Source of the DNA: Anolis carolinensis
Lineage: Eukaryota
Reading direction: 5' to 3'
Length of the DNA: 64,000 nucleotides
NCBI RefSeq assembly: GCF_035594765.1
Contig: NC_085843.1
Location: 100,603,971-100,667,970 of the forward strand
A program made the position numbers. How positions within the stretch are numbered: position 1 is the first letter of the stretch; every line of letters starts with the position of its first letter. Shown piece after piece: positions 48,401 to 64,000 of the stretch.

Positions 48401-51400
48401 ATCATTCTGGTTGCCCTTCTCTGGAAAAATTTTAATAACCTTGAATTGCGGTGCCCAGAACTGGACACAGAGTTATTCCAGGTGAGGTCTGACCAAAGCA
48501 GAATAAAGGGGGACTGACATCCCTTGATCTCAACACGATACTCCTTTGATGCAGCCTAGAATTGGACTGGCCTTTATAGCTGCTGCATCACATTGCTGAC
48601 TCATGTTCAGCTTGAGGTCTACTAAGACTGAGCTTTGGAGTACAGTCAGCCTTCCGTATTCCATGAATTTTTTATCCACAGATACAACCATTGGTTTGAA
48701 ACTGTTTTCTCAAAAAATATATAAACCAAACCTTGATTTTATCATTTTTTAATGGAAGGACCAAGATTTGACTACATCACTATATATAATGGGACTTGAG
48801 CATCCATGGATTTTGATACAAATACTCAAAGACCAGGGTTGAAATCCCCTTCTGACCATGGACTTTGGGTAAATCACTCTCTCAGCCTAAGGGGAAGGCA
48901 ATGGCAAACCTCTTCTGCACCAATATTGCCAAGAAAACCCTGTTAGAAGGTCAACTGTGAGTTTCCCGGGCTGTATGACCATGTTCCAGAAGCATTCTCT
49001 CCTGACATTTTGCCCACATCTATGGCAGGCATCCTCAGAGGTTGTGAGGTAGATTAGAAACTAAGTAAGGGATGTTTATATATCTGTGGAAGGTCCAGGG
49101 TAGGAGAAATAACTCTTGTCTGTTGGAGGCAAGTGTGAATGTTACAATTAATCACCTTGATTAGCATTGAAAAGCCTAGCAGCTTCAAGGCCTGGCTGCT
49201 TCGTGCTTGGGGGAATCCTTTGTTGGGAGGTGTTAGTGGTCCTGATTGTTTCCTGTCTGGAATCCCCCAGTTTACAGAGAGGGGTTCTTCATTTACTGTC
49301 CTGATTCTAGAATTTTTAATACCGGTAGCCAGATGTTGTTCATTTTCATGGTTTCCTGCTTTCTGTTGAAATTGTCCACATGTGTGGATTTCAATGGCTT
49401 CTTTGACATGGTGGTTGAAAATGAACAAGACCTGCCTACCAGTATTTTAAAAAATCAGGACAGAAAATAAAGAACCGCACTCTGAGAACAGGGGAATGCA
49501 AGCCATGAAACAATCAGGGCCAGCTAACACCTCCCAACAAAGGATTCCCCCAGACAGGAATCAGCCAGGCTGTGAAGCTGCAAGGCCATTCAGTGCTAAT
49601 CAAGGTGGCTAATTACAATATCCACACTTGCTTTCAACAGGCATGAGTTCTTTGCCCCACCCTGGACCTTCCACAGATATATAAACAGATGAGGGCGAAA
49701 CGTCAGGAGAGAATGGTTCTCGAACATGGCAATACAGCCCGGAAAACTCACAGCAACCGAGTGATTCCGGCCATGAAAGCCTCCAACAACACATACGTAT
49801 AATTATTCGAAATGTAATCCCAAAGTCACTTTTCCCCAAAAAGTACAAGTCACCTTATCGCTGCGGAACTTCCTAAGGAAGCATTTGGGTTCACCCTCGG
49901 CGGCCCCGACCCCCTTCCGCCCGGTCTTCTAGCACGCATGCGTGGGTTGGAAAGGCCTTTTACAATTCGTTGGACAATATGAGCATGCGCGGCGTGGGCT
50001 GTGTTTGCGCAGCCGCTTCTGCTGTGTCCTTGCAATTGCGCTGGAGCGAGTCGCAGTACAACTGTACCGATATCATCTAGAAATGGTATACTTTCCCTTT
50101 GGAAATAAAAAAAAGTTTTTGAAAGTTTAGTGAGAGATTATCCACATTGTACAAACTGCGGCCTGACACCGCTTTAACTGCTATGGCTCAATGCTAGGGA
50201 AATCTTGGGAGCTGTAGTTTGGCGAGGCACCAGCACTCTGGAAGAATTGGCCAAAGGTAAAAGGTAAAGGTTTTCCCCTGACGTTAAGTCCAGTCATGTC
50301 TGACTCTAGGGGTTGGTGCTCATCTCCATTTCTAAGCCGAAGAGCCGGCGTCGTCCGTAGACACCTCCAAGGTCATGTGGCCGGCATGACTGCATGGAGC
50401 GCCGTTACCTTCCCGACGGAGCGGTACCTATTGATCTACTCACATTGGCATGTTTTCGAACTGCTAGGTTGGCAGAAGCTGGAGCTAATAGCGGGCGCTC
50501 ACTCCGCTCCCGGGATTTGAACCTGGGACCTTTCGGTCTGCAAGTTCAGCAGCTCAGCGCTTTAACATACTTCGCCATCGGGGACCCTGTACAACTACAA
50601 CAGTTTTCCGGGCTGTATGGCCATGTTCCAGAAGCACTCACCTGACGTTTCGCCTGCATCTGTGGCGGGCATTCTCACGGGTTGTGAGGTCTGTCAGAAA
50701 CTATGCAAGGGTTTATATATTCATATAGAATCATAAGAGTTGGAAGAGACCACGTAAGCCATCTAAGCCAACCCCCAGCAATGCAGCAAAAGCGCAATCA
50801 AAGTACCCCTGACAGATGGCCATCCAACCTCTGTTTAAAAGTTTGCAAGGAAGGAGCTAAACAAGACTAAGTCTAAATAGACATTCTTTCTCTTGCTTTT
50901 GTTTGAATATATAATGCTATGATGGCATCCCTCCACCCCAGATTAGTCTTCTCAACAACACCACGCATAAAATAATCATTTGTTAAATCAGGGTGAAGTC
51001 TACAAGATATTAATATGTTCTTTATACTCTGGTTAATACAGGGCAAAGTGAATGAGAATTGAGCTGTGATCCAGGAACTCCCCAAGACAAATACTGCTCT
51101 GCATTTTGACTTTTCATCCTTTCAAGAACTATACACTTTGAATCCACTTCATTATTCACTACTTTGAAATTTTATTTTTACACAGAGCTTGCAGCCATGA
51201 CTGATTCTAGAATCCAGTTCTCTGGACAAGTTTCACATAAATAAATAAGTACAGAAAATATTTGCAGATTTTGGAAAAAATTACTTTTGGGTCATCACAT
51301 CACAGAACCATCCAACCAGGATTTTGGGATTTGCAACCCAAAAGGTAGCTTTTCTTAGATCTGCATTATCTTCCAGATATTGGGTGTGGTATGATGTTCC

Positions 51401-61200: not shown

Positions 61201-64000
61201 TGAGCTGTGAACCAGTAACTCCCCAAGACAAATACTGCTCTGCTAGAAACTCCCAGGTAGCCTTAGGCTCCCATATCCCTATCTGTAATACTGAGATGAT
61301 AACACCAACTAGGAATTATTCATACACGTGAGTCACTTTTTATTCTGAAAGTATATCCTTAGAAAAAAATATAATGCTAGCTCTTTATAAGAAGCTATTC
61401 TTGCCAATTGTAACCCATGGTTTCAATTCCATCACCATCGTACTGCACTATAATATGTAATCTGTTGTAATCTGCCTTGCATCCTGTAATGGGATAAAAG
61501 TATAAAATAAATATCTCTAAGGGGAAGAAAGATGTTTGCCTGGTTTCTTCCTCCCTTCAAGCTAAGACAGGCAACTTTTTCATCATCTGAACAGCAGTGG
61601 GAAGGACAAGGACCTCTGCCATTCTCACGAATACCTTAAGGCTGAGCATTGAGCCATAGTGCCTTTCAGACAATGGAACAGTTAGCTAATTTTACATTAA
61701 TATAGGCCAGGAATGGAGATTATGCTCTTCCAGATGTTGGACTGCATATTCTTATCACCGAGTGCTATTTAGTCCAACAACATCTGAAGGGTGGCATGTT
61801 TCCTACTTCTAATTCAGATCAAAAAGTTTTTCCAAGGGAGAATCTTTAGCATGTGCTGTTTCACTTACTTTGAAACCAGGTCACACTGCTTTTGCGTGGT
61901 CTCCCATTTGTTCTGTTCAGTAGGGTGTGGGAACTCCTTTGTTATGTTGTATCCTGATGACTCATGAACTGTGTATTTGTTGCAGGTATGCCTCACAGGT
62001 ATCAGAAATACGTTCAGCGGAGCATCAGTGCAATGCCATTTATATAGAATGTATCAATGCAATGCCATTTATATAGAATTGCAGTGAACTTTCGTCTGGA
62101 GTATGTCATATTAGTTTAATTTTTAATTGCCTAAGAGCTTTAATTGCAAAGAGGAAGTAGAAGAAAGGTGGTGCAAAATAATAAGCTTGCTGTGTGCAAA
62201 ATGAAGGCAAAAGTCCCATGGTTTTAAAATACATGCTTATCAACACTGAGGTCATTTTGACTTTTCTTCCTTTCAAGAACTATACACTTTGAATCCACTT
62301 CATTATTCATTACTTTGAAATTTTATTTTTACACAGTAATTGCAGCCATGACTGATTCTAGAATCCAGTTCTCTGGACAAGTTTCACAAAAATAAATAAG
62401 TACAGAAAATATTTGCAGATTTTGGAAAAATTACTTTTGGGCCATCACATCACAAAACCATCCAACCAGGATTCTGGGATTTGCAACACAAAAGGTAGCT
62501 TTTCCTAGATCTGCATTATCTTCCAGATATTGGGTGTGATATGATGTTCCCTCTTATACTATTGCAGTTTAAATTGCTGACTTCTTCCAGAAATACATTT
62601 TTCATTCTGGGCAAGCACATTTGAAAGAATGGAACTTGAATTTGGGTTTATAAACAGCTTTTCCATTCAAAAGGGTTCTCAAAACAGCATCATGTGTCAA
62701 TCCATATACATCATTAATATATTGCCTTAAGTACAGTGTGTGATGTGTGCTGACCCAAACATATCCTCAATTCTGAAACAGGTGTTCAGCTCTGGTTGCT
62801 GCGTGAGAGCATTGGCCCAGAAACACGCAGCAGCCATGCACTTCTTGTGACCACTGTGTGTGCAATGTCTTCTGATGACTCCACGAGCTTCATGATGTCC
62901 CCATGAGTTTTGTAAGGCAAGTATTACTCAAATATGGTTTGTCATTGTCTGCCTCTGAACATAGCAGCACCTGGTACTTCTTGTTGGGTCTTCCATCCAA
63001 GTAATAACCAGGGTTGAGTACTGAAAGTTTTTTTCTTGATCAATTGCCATCCAGCAACAATAAAACAACAATAAAACAACAAAACAACAATAAAAAAATT
63101 AAAAAAAAAAAGAAATTTTAAAAAGAAAAAAAAAAATTGCCATCCAGCCAAAGCTAGCTACTTTAAATTTAATTTTGCATGTTGCAACAGCAATGTATGT
63201 ATGAGCAACTGGCCATATATACATTTATATAAGATGATTTATTATGTGTAGATCCTACGTGAATGATAATTATAATCACTAATCTACTAACAAAAGAAAT
63301 TAACTTTAAAATATGTATATAGTTGGATGTCATCAAGAGTAGAAAAAAGTTTGAATTAGTTAATTGATAAAATAAGGAGAAGGAATACTATGCAGCATTG
63401 GAAGAGAAGGAAAAAAGAACAATATAAGAAGATAAAAGAAATCAATGTGGATCCTGAAGGATACATAGTTACTCTTGTTAGAGAAGATGTCATTGTTGGA
63501 ACTTTTTTCTTTTACTTGACTTCCTCCCTATACTATATATATATATATATATATATATGAATAACAATACTCCCTTCCCCTCTGTGTCTTTGATGAAACA
63601 ATAGACTAGTGTATAGAACTATTTAACTAAATGGCTCCATAACTTACATACTTACATTGTGTTGGCTCAATGGCTTAAACCCTTGTGCCGGCTGAACTGC
63701 TGACCTGAAGGTTGGGTTGCTGACATGAAGGTTGCCGGTTCGAATCCACAAGATGGGGTGAGCTCCCATCTGTCAGCTCTAGCTTGTGGGGATATGAAAG
63801 AAGCCTCCCAGCAGGATGGTAACACATCTGGGCATCCCCTGGGCAACGTCTTTGTAGATGGCCAATTCTCTCACACCAGAAGTGACTTGCGGTATGTTCT
63901 CAAGTTGCTTCTAACATGATGAAAAAAGAAACCAAAAACTCACATGCTATATCTTGTGATGTTTGCCATCTTTCCCTTATTTTTCCCTATTTTAATTGTT

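What the first reader, a model, noticed from the sequence alone, without database searches (positions are those of the whole stretch)
50725..64000. Claudin-34-like gene inside a ~10-11 kb tandem duplication: probable lineage-specific claudin array next to TCEANC
Seen: an intact claudin-34-like ORF (55583-56380) lies between two direct copies of a mostly non-repetitive segment (50725-52894 and 60670-64000), and copy 2 is still matching at the last base (52894 = 64000, offset 11106). Recalled: in human TCEANC is followed by EGFL6, and CLDN34 sits several Mb away near SHROOM2/WWC3. Inference: this is a relocated paralog being tandemly amplified; a second claudin copy is predicted roughly 2.7-3.5 kb past the window end if the unit stays colinear.
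Basis: partly seen in the sequence, partly recalled or inferred. Interest (0 to 1): 0.72.

Follow-up and report, generated by a model that had tools for sequence, protein, structure and literature searches.

The report
Anole claudin-34 gene inside recent duplication
This is an intact, already-annotated claudin-34 family gene of the green anole, one of several anole-specific copies, lying beside TCEANC and flanked by two copies of a recently duplicated non-coding stretch; it is an ordinary gene-family expansion, and the predicted twin gene past the window end could not be checked.

Summary
An intact claudin ORF (55583-56380, minus strand; 299 aa from an upstream ATG) lies between two colinear direct copies, 50715-52894 and 60663-64000. 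They share 1,484 aligned nt at 94.6% identity, and copy 2 still matches at base 64000.

The window is Anolis carolinensis. The 299-aa protein is already in NCBI/UniRef, and TCEANC and RAB9A lie beside it. Pfam, a profile search of solved structures and a predicted fold all place it in the claudin family.

A tree puts all eight Anolis CLDN34-like sequences (seven from A. carolinensis) in one clade (100/99) next to the single Sceloporus gene. The expansion is therefore anole-specific.

The duplication is real rather than an assembly artefact: the copies differ by about 5%, and a transposon with a target-site duplication sits in copy 1 only. Both copies begin at the tail of a CR1-like LINE, which suggests unequal crossing-over.

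- No protein between 67% and 97% identity exists in the database, so no diverged intact twin is annotated.
- In Phrynocephalus the single CLDN34-like gene lies six locus tags beyond TCEANC, which argues against an anole-specific relocation.

The sequence beyond the window end could not be read.

The parts
55583..56380 (-). Claudin-34-family coding sequence, 265 aa plus stop, single exon.
   Evidence: Open frame. Pfam Claudin_2 at 43.1 bits against a cut-off of 29.1. The MEKWL start is shared with P0003 and P0004, and the C-terminal tail is shared with P0002, P0003 and P0004. The predicted fold has four transmembrane helices and a five-strand sheet, and claudin-4, -3 and -15 are the top structural matches.
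56381..56482 (-). In-frame upstream extension of 34 codons from the first ATG, which gives the 299-aa protein held in NCBI/UniRef.
   Evidence: The extension has no counterpart in the paralogs that start at MEKWL. A stop codon lies 8 codons upstream of this ATG.
50715..52894 (+). Copy 1 of the duplicated non-coding segment, 2.7-4.9 kb downstream of the claudin stop codon.
   Evidence: None of the 5 open frames tested here match Pfam.
60663..64000 (+). Copy 2 of the duplicated segment. It is cut off by the window end and lies 4.2 kb and more upstream of the claudin ATG.
   Evidence: None of the 3 open frames tested here match Pfam.
51699..52381 (+). A 683-bp transposon inserted in copy 1 only, flanked by the target-site duplication TTAGAG. 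The empty site is intact in copy 2.
   Evidence: junctions and empty site.
50710..50858 (-). A 5'-truncated CR1-like LINE 3' end in antisense, which forms the left edge of copy 1.
   Evidence: The alignment matches the reverse complement of the LINE 3' end at 60250-60500. This repeat has up to 9 other matches in the window.
60653..60860 (-). A CR1-like LINE 3' end in antisense, starting with the (TCATAGAA)n tail. It forms the left edge of copy 2 and reaches deeper into the LINE than the copy-1 fragment does.
   Evidence: tandem repeat at 60653-60683; alignment. Its inner end (~60860) is read by eye from the alignment; the blastn match to the LINE ends at 60847. The link between this 8-nt microsatellite and CR1 elements is recalled.
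59446..60487 (+). A LINE fragment holding the C-terminal half of reverse transcriptase and its 3' end. It sits just left of the unit junction and faces the antisense tail at 60653.
   Evidence: RVT_1 at E 6e-5, below the gathering score; 60295-60487 is inverted against 60657-60847.
44435..45484 (-). TCEANC coding sequence, 350 aa, single open frame.
   Evidence: Pfam TFIIS_M and Med26. The exact sequence is in NCBI and clusters with named TCEANC proteins.
27738..28340 (-). RAB9A coding sequence, 201 aa, single open frame.
   Evidence: Pfam Ras. The exact sequence is in NCBI and clusters with named Rab-9A proteins.

Best explanation
The ORF is a functional-looking, already-annotated member of a claudin-34 gene family that expanded within the Anolis lineage. 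It encodes a four-pass membrane protein with the claudin extracellular sheet and the W-GIW-C-C signature. It also carries a long cytoplasmic tail with a CxxCGS motif that is widespread in squamate CLDN34 proteins.

The gene lies about 10 kb beyond TCEANC, in the same orientation as TCEANC and RAB9A. A CLDN34 gene close to TCEANC probably predates Anolis.

The two direct repeats are the visible ends of a real, moderately old duplication (about 5% divergence) with a period of about 10 kb. Both copies start exactly at the 3' tail of an antisense CR1-like LINE. From this I infer that unequal crossing-over between two dispersed CR1 tails made a head-to-tail duplication of a unit running roughly from 50715 to 60662. 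At birth that unit would have carried the claudin.

Shown: the gene's identity, the anole-specific clade, the repeat and its age markers, and the CR1 edges. Inferred: the crossing-over mechanism, that the whole unit was copied, and the tissue role. Tissue role is unknown; the mouse Cldn34c4 precedent points to testis, but only by analogy.

If a claudin follows copy 2, it is most likely a pseudogene, a truncated copy or an unannotated gene. No diverged intact twin is present in the protein collection.
For: Gene and fold:
- Pfam Claudin_2.
- The profile of 18 family members matches solved claudin-4, -3, -9, -19, -18 and -15 at E 7.7e-17 to 1.3e-3.
- AlphaFold2 model: pLDDT 75.8, helices at 17-48, 101-133, 138-171 and 195-223, and five strands.
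- Foldseek ranks 1-18 shown are all claudins, with target-normalised TM-score up to 0.85. TARP subunits come after them.
- The extracellular-loop-1 signature is present in 20 of 20 family sequences.

Already annotated: the exact 299-aa sequence is in NCBI/UniRef on a contig of 288,964,324 bp.

Anole-specific expansion: 7 distinct A. carolinensis sequences at 54-87% pairwise identity, and the 8 Anolis rows form a clade with support 100/99.

The duplication is real:
- 95.2% identity over 1,343 unique nt.
- A transposon with a target-site duplication sits in copy 1 only.
- Four large indels separate the copies.
- There is no N run between the copies. The only one in the window is 6648-6779.

CR1 edges.

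Proximity to TCEANC outside Anolis: the Phrynocephalus tags 019115, 019116 and 019122. In Paroedura RAB9A is XP_077199340-44 and claudin-34 is XP_077199389.
Against: - No protein of 68-96% identity to this one appears in either family search, and its 90% cluster holds only itself and an older model of the same gene. An intact diverged twin should have been annotated.
- The right end of the unit is outside the window, so head-to-tail duplication of the full unit is not shown.
- The crossing-over model predicts that copy 2 looks like copy 1 right after the CR1 tail. Instead copy 2 has 208 bp more there, including deeper CR1 sequence. This needs a later deletion in copy 1.
- Divergence differs among blocks (88.7-96.9%; chi-square p = 0.0003 with the CR1 block and p = 0.01 without it). 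I have no firm explanation for this.
- In Elgaria the RAB9A and claudin-34 accessions are 1,291 apart, and the two named A. carolinensis paralogs are 1,700 apart. If accession order follows position, which I did not verify, not all copies sit here.
- Five gene models separate TCEANC from the claudin in Phrynocephalus, but none does in this window.
Confidence: 0.68

Rival explanations
1. Partial or dispersed duplication. Only a non-coding piece of at least 2.2 kb was copied and placed about 10 kb away in direct orientation. The claudin was never part of the copied unit, and nothing claudin-like follows the window end.
For: There is no annotated near-identical claudin. Only one claudin and no remnant exist in the window. 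Only the left edge of the unit is visible.
Against: Copy 2 starts where the stretch that follows copy 1 ends, so a head-to-tail duplication explains the layout with one event. Both copies begin at the same point of the same kind of LINE tail, as expected from unequal crossing-over. Copy 2 is still matching at the last base of the window.
Confidence: 0.3
2. The gene is a paralog that moved in Anolis from the ancestral CLDN34 site near SHROOM2/WWC3 to the TCEANC-EGFL6 interval and is now being amplified there.
For: The anole-specific clade. NCBI gives the plain name 'claudin-34' to a different paralog, P0004, whose accession is 1,700 away from that of P0010, the NCBI model of this gene's closest paralog.
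Against: The single Phrynocephalus CLDN34-like gene is six locus tags beyond TCEANC, on the side away from RAB9A. The gecko claudin-34 accession is about 45 from RAB9A. No retrocopy signature is present: I saw no poly-A tract in the roughly 380 nt read downstream of the stop codon. The human gene order the idea rests on is recalled and was not tested here.
Confidence: 0.2
3. The two copies are members of a multi-copy mobile element, for example the long terminal repeats of a retroelement, and not a segmental duplication.
For: Direct orientation at about 95% identity. I could not count genome-wide copies.
Against: Apart from embedded short repeats, the segment has no third copy in 64 kb. None of the 8 open frames tested in the copies match any Pfam family. 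The stretch between the copies holds a host gene, a SINE-like repeat and a LINE fragment rather than retroelement genes. Homology runs for at least 2.2 kb and is still going at the window end.
Confidence: 0.05
4. Assembly artefact. Two haplotypes or mis-joined reads of one locus were laid side by side.
For: None specific. It is a general risk for tandem repeats near the limit of what an assembler resolves.
Against: About 5% substitution divergence, a transposon with a target-site duplication private to copy 1, three large indels private to copy 2, and no gap between the copies.
Confidence: 0.04

Closest known systems
Classic claudins with solved structures (claudin-4, -3, -9, -19, -15)
   Same: Four transmembrane helices, a five-strand extracellular sheet, and the W-G[LI]W-C-C signature in the first loop.
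   Different: Only 15-22% identity in the structural alignments. The spacer between the two loop cysteines is longer: 14 residues here (C74 to C89). A disordered tail of about 45 residues carries CxxCGS and ends in LFNI, not the -YV PDZ-binding end that I recall for classic claudins.
Squamate CLDN34 genes (single-copy 'claudin-34' of Sceloporus, Elgaria and Paroedura)
   Different: The window protein is 39-47% identical to them. Only one protein per species was found in these three, against seven distinct sequences in A. carolinensis.
Podarcis muralis claudin-34-like cluster
   Same: An independent recent multiplication of the same family. Five distinct proteins, all more than 90% alike, carry consecutive accessions XP_077779886-96 on a contig of one length.
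   Different: It lies in a different squamate lineage and a different clade of the tree. Those copies are much more alike than the Anolis paralogs (54-87%). Their positions were not seen.
Mouse Cldn34 paralogs (Cldn34b, c and d series)
   Same: A lineage-specific multiplication of CLDN34. The paralog names occur in 26 papers.
   Different: That the mouse copies are X-linked and number about a dozen is recalled, not tested. Cldn34c4 is testis-expressed, and its knockdown lowered testis weight and sperm number (passages of PMC10943590). It was reduced in round spermatids of Tent5d mutants (passages of PMC8901658). I found no expression data for the anole genes.

Membership tests
Claudin / PMP22 / EMP / MP20 superfamily | Significant match to the family profile above the curated cut-off | tested here: met
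   Pfam PF13903 Claudin_2, E 5.3e-11, 43.1 bits against a cut-off of 29.1, covering profile positions 1-191 of 192.
Claudin / PMP22 / EMP / MP20 superfamily | Four transmembrane helices with a five-strand extracellular sheet | tested here: met
   The AlphaFold2 model has helices at 17-48, 101-133, 138-171 and 195-223, and strands at 53-56, 66-68, 72-76, 87-91 and 190-193. Claudin-15 (4p79) gives a target-normalised TM-score of 0.85. This is a prediction, not a solved structure.
Claudins proper | First-loop signature W ... G-L/I-W-x-x-C ... C | tested here: met
   Present at residues 52-89 of the 265-aa protein and in 20 of 20 family sequences. W52, W55, G69, I70, W71, C74 and C89 are invariant in 18 of 18 sequences. 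The motif definition itself is recalled.
Claudins proper | C-terminal PDZ-binding end (-YV) of classic claudins | tested here: not met
   The protein ends in LFNI, and none of the 20 family sequences ends in YV. As I recall, non-classic claudins often lack this end, so it does not exclude the family.
Claudins proper | Localises to tight junctions and forms strands | not testable with these tools
   Needs expression and imaging.
CLDN34 subfamily | Nearest named relatives are CLDN34 | tested here: met
   22 of the 23 profile hits carry a source name, all from squamates. 15 are named claudin-34, Claudin 34 or claudin-34-like, 1 is named claudin-4-like, and 6 are uncharacterised or hypothetical. 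The 23rd hit is unnamed. An Atlas cluster named 'claudin-34-like isoform X1' scores 0.94. These names are automatic annotations.
CLDN34 subfamily | Groups with mammalian or bird CLDN34 in a tree against other claudins | not tested
No non-squamate CLDN34 sequence was on hand.
Tandem segmental duplication | Two colinear direct copies with divergence and private insertions | tested here: met
Tandem segmental duplication | The whole unit, including the gene, is present twice head to tail | not testable with these tools
Indirectly, no diverged twin protein is annotated.

The most novel reading that the evidence does not exclude
Anolis carries a still-growing tandem array of CLDN34 genes seeded beside TCEANC and extended by unequal crossing-over between CR1 tails. 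The duplication seen here is its newest step and holds a young, not yet annotated claudin copy. Together with the independent bursts in Podarcis and mouse, this would make CLDN34 a recurrently amplified gene, possibly tied to reproduction, in amniotes.
Probability: 0.2. Interest if true: 0.45.

Novelty: new member of a known kind. Interest (0 to 1): 0.27.

Why it matters
Modestly. The gene itself is already in the public annotation. What this work adds is that the CLDN34 family multiplied independently in anoles, at least seven sequences in one clade, and apparently also in wall lizards. It also shows that one step of that process can be seen here, with its likely mechanism (crossing-over between LINE tails) and age markers. 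I found no paper on this: searches for claudin-34 with Anolis, and for claudin with squamate and 'gene family expansion', returned nothing. Repeated lineage-specific amplification of one poorly understood claudin, whose mouse paralog affects sperm production, would be a reasonable topic for a comparative study. It would not surprise a specialist in gene-family evolution.

Tried and rejected
- A 97% hit (P0001) first looked like the predicted twin. Its core is identical to the window protein, and its odd ends map to 56443-56472 and 55471-55503 next to the ORF. It is an older model of the same gene.
- Claudin remnants elsewhere in the window. tblastn with the window protein found nothing better than E 2.7. 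With 19 family proteins, 19 of 31 hits fall in the ORF. Four hits come from the tail of P0019 and land on an interspersed repeat (52997-53134 and 48041-48285). The other eight have E of 0.15 or more.
- The duplicated block as a coding transposon. I scanned 10 of the 64 open frames of at least 60 codons listed: eight in the copies and two between them. None matched Pfam.
- RNA genes. No Rfam family reaches its gathering score in 46000-64000.
- Retrocopy origin. I saw no poly-A tract in the roughly 380 nt read downstream of the stop codon, and only an ATTAAA 148 nt after it.
- The 340-codon open frame at 58653-59672 (-). It has no Pfam match, a low Atlas recognition score (1134) and a best hit of 0.81. 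I do not treat it as a gene.
- Literature. There are no papers on claudin-34 with Anolis and none on claudin with squamate and 'gene family expansion'. The CLDN34 and tandem-duplication search gave nothing relevant in the 20 papers listed out of 157 (listing and abstracts only).
- Accession-number gaps as a stand-in for distance. I treat these as weak evidence because I could not verify that NCBI numbering follows map order.

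
Full report
**What is in the sequence**

One search lists an open frame on the minus strand at 55583-56482, 299 aa from the first ATG.

Ungapped and gapped self-comparison show one colinear chain of five direct-repeat blocks:

| Copy 1 | Copy 2 |
|---|---|
| 50715-50858 | 60663-60803 |
| 50857-51102 | 61012-61243 |
| 51102-51492 | 62253-62642 |
| 51489-51698 | 63268-63483 |
| 52382-52894 | 63475-64000 |

Re-aligned block by block, the copies share 1,484 nt at 94.6% identity (K2P 0.056). 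Without the first block, which is a common repeat, they share 1,343 nt at 95.2%. The window has one N run, 6648-6779. It is far from the finding and was left alone.

**Whose DNA it is**

The best protein hits are Anolis carolinensis 'Claudin 34' entries. The exact 299-aa translation is in NCBI/UniRef on a contig of 288,964,324 bp. The TCEANC (44435-45484, minus) and RAB9A (27738-28340, minus) translations are also held exactly, on a contig of that same length, and they cluster with named TCEANC and Rab-9A proteins.

I take the window for green anole. The alternative exons of an older model were only mapped.

**What the gene is**

- Pfam gives Claudin_2 above its cut-off.
- A profile of 18 family members finds solved claudin-4, -3, -9, -19, -18 and -15 structures (E 7.7e-17 to 1.3e-3).
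- An AlphaFold2 model built on that alignment (pLDDT 75.8, pTM 0.68) has four long helices and five strands. Its tail (residues 221-265) is disordered.
- Foldseek lists claudins first, with target-normalised TM-scores of 0.79-0.85 for the chains without a fusion partner. TARP gamma subunits come only after them.
- The first-loop signature W...G[IL]W..C...C is present in 20 of 20 family sequences.
- The Atlas lists claudin-family clusters, including 'claudin-34-like isoform X1' at 0.94.

P0003 and P0004 begin at the same MEKWL. The long C-terminal tail is shared by P0002, P0003 and P0004. This model is better supported than the 299-aa NCBI form, and better than the Ensembl form P0001, whose odd ends come from tiny flanking exons at 56443-56472 and 55471-55503.

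**The family**

A profile search returned 23 proteins. All 22 named ones come from squamates, and the one unnamed hit (P0020) was not used. A. carolinensis contributes seven distinct sequences: the window gene, P0002, P0028, P0004, P0005, P0019 and P0006. They are 54-87% identical to each other.

I built a maximum-likelihood tree of 22 rows. Left out were P0001 and P0009-P0013, which are alternative models of genes already in the tree, and P0020. The tree puts the eight Anolis rows in one clade (100/99) beside the single Sceloporus gene. The window gene groups with P0002 and P0028 (100/99), and A. sagrei P0003 pairs with P0004 (96/97).

The tree was rooted on the gecko sequence, because no named non-squamate CLDN34 was available. 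The rest of the tree follows the accepted squamate relationships as I recall them. The expansion is therefore anole-specific, and it began before the ancestor shared with A. sagrei.

Independent multiplications show up in two other lineages:
- Rhineura has three proteins, two with adjacent accessions.
- Podarcis muralis has five proteins more than 90% alike, with consecutive accessions.

**The duplication**

It is not an assembly artefact. The copies differ by about 5%. Copy 1 holds a 683-bp transposon with the target-site duplication TTAGAG, and the empty site is intact in copy 2. Copy 2 has three private stretches of 208, 1,009 and 625 bp. No gap lies between the copies.

It does not look like a mobile element. 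There is no third copy in the window apart from embedded short repeats. None of the eight open frames tested in the copies hit Pfam (which scanned 10 of the 64 frames listed). No Rfam family matches.

Both copies start exactly at the 3' tail of an antisense LINE fragment. That tail is the 8-nt microsatellite (TCATAGAA)n, at about 50710 and at 60653-60683. I recall this tail as the mark of CR1 elements. A sense LINE fragment with half a reverse transcriptase ends just to the left, at 60487.

Homology that begins at the shared end of two truncated LINE copies is what unequal crossing-over between them would leave, so I propose that mechanism. Two facts fit it poorly. Copy 2 has 208 bp more just after the tail, including deeper LINE sequence, so a later deletion in copy 1 is needed. 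Divergence also varies among blocks (p = 0.01 even without the LINE block).

**Does copy 2 carry a claudin?**

This cannot be read, because the window ends 2.7 kb short of the equivalent point, and no tool here reaches the anole genome.

The indirect evidence is negative for an intact diverged twin:
- Neither family search lists a protein between 67% and 97% identity.
- The 97% hit is the same gene.
- The 90% cluster has only those two members.

A twin kept identical by gene conversion, a pseudogene or an unannotated copy would escape this test. My estimates are about 0.55-0.6 that claudin-homologous DNA follows, and about 0.15-0.2 that it is intact.

**Relocation**

Here, Phrynocephalus forsythii has RAB9A = JRQ81_019115, TCEANC = JRQ81_019116 and its only CLDN34-like protein found = JRQ81_019122. 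All three sit on a contig of 143,177,267 bp.

So an agamid has its CLDN34 gene six gene models beyond TCEANC, on the side away from RAB9A, as in this window. In Paroedura the RAB9A and claudin-34 accessions are about 45 apart.

Two observations point the other way. In Elgaria the accessions are 1,291 apart, and the two named A. carolinensis paralogs are 1,700 apart. I could not verify that accession order follows map order, so these gaps are weak evidence. On balance a CLDN34 gene near TCEANC looks older than Anolis, and an anole-specific move is unlikely (about 0.2).

**Function**

Nothing here shows where the gene is expressed. The only functional precedent I found is mouse Cldn34c4. It is testis-expressed, and its knockdown lowered testis weight and sperm number (passages of PMC10943590). 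It was lower in round spermatids of Tent5d mutants (passages of PMC8901658). Supplementary files of these papers were not opened.

I found no paper on CLDN34 in anoles or other squamates.

**Verdict**

This is an ordinary, already-annotated gene in a lineage-specific family expansion, with a real recent duplication around it.

Noticed in passing
55586-55651 (-), residues 244-265 of the 265-aa protein; P0002, P0003, P0014, P0017, P0018, P0007, P0021, P0022, P0015, P0024: The cytoplasmic tail carries a CxxCGS motif. It is found in 11 of 20 family sequences, from geckos, anguimorphs, lacertoids and iguanians, in a region the model predicts as disordered. It is degenerate (CIRFGS) in the A. carolinensis protein that NCBI names claudin-34 (P0004). 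Its role is unknown.
   Followed up: partly
Podarcis muralis proteins P0015, P0053, P0055, P0056, P0058 (no locus fetched): Five distinct claudin-34-like proteins, all more than 90% alike, carry consecutive accessions XP_077779886-96 on a contig of 126,814,402 bp. A sixth is on another contig. This looks like an independent and much younger tandem array of the same family.
   Followed up: partly
window 58653-59672 (-): A 340-codon open frame (319 aa from its first ATG) lies just left of, and opposite to, the LINE reverse-transcriptase fragment. It has no Pfam match, a low Atlas recognition score (1134) and a best hit of 0.81. It is too long to arise easily by chance, but it has no recognisable family.
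   Followed up: partly
window 52997-53134 (-) and 48041-48285 (+); protein P0019 residues 173-226: The unusual C-terminal tail of the Ensembl paralog model A0A803TBM4 (P0019) matches an interspersed repeat present twice in this window (E about 1e-7). That paralog is therefore either interrupted by a transposon or mis-modelled.
   Followed up: no
window 60295-60487 (+) and 60657-60847 (-): Two LINE 3' ends face each other tail to tail about 165 bp apart, exactly at the junction between unit 1 and unit 2 (81% identity inverted; alignment).
   Followed up: partly
window 14151-15572 (+); related copies at about 37.9-38.8, 39.4-40.8 and 48.9-49.8 kb: Two adjoining long open frames (293 and 179 codons) have no Pfam match at E 1e-3. 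They belong to a repeat family with several copies in both orientations between RAB9A and the claudin. The family was not identified.
   Followed up: no
window 50857-51102 and 51489-51698 versus 51102-51492 and 52382-52894: Divergence between the two copies is uneven: 93.1% and 91.9% identity in two blocks against 96.2% and 96.9% in the other two (chi-square p = 0.01). Partial gene conversion or local mutation-rate differences could explain this, but neither was tested.
   Followed up: no
window 6648-6779: This is the only N run in the window (132 bases). It directly follows a SINE-like repeat at 6341-6647 that has copies at about 18.0, 50.3 and 58.0 kb. It was left as it is.
   Followed up: no
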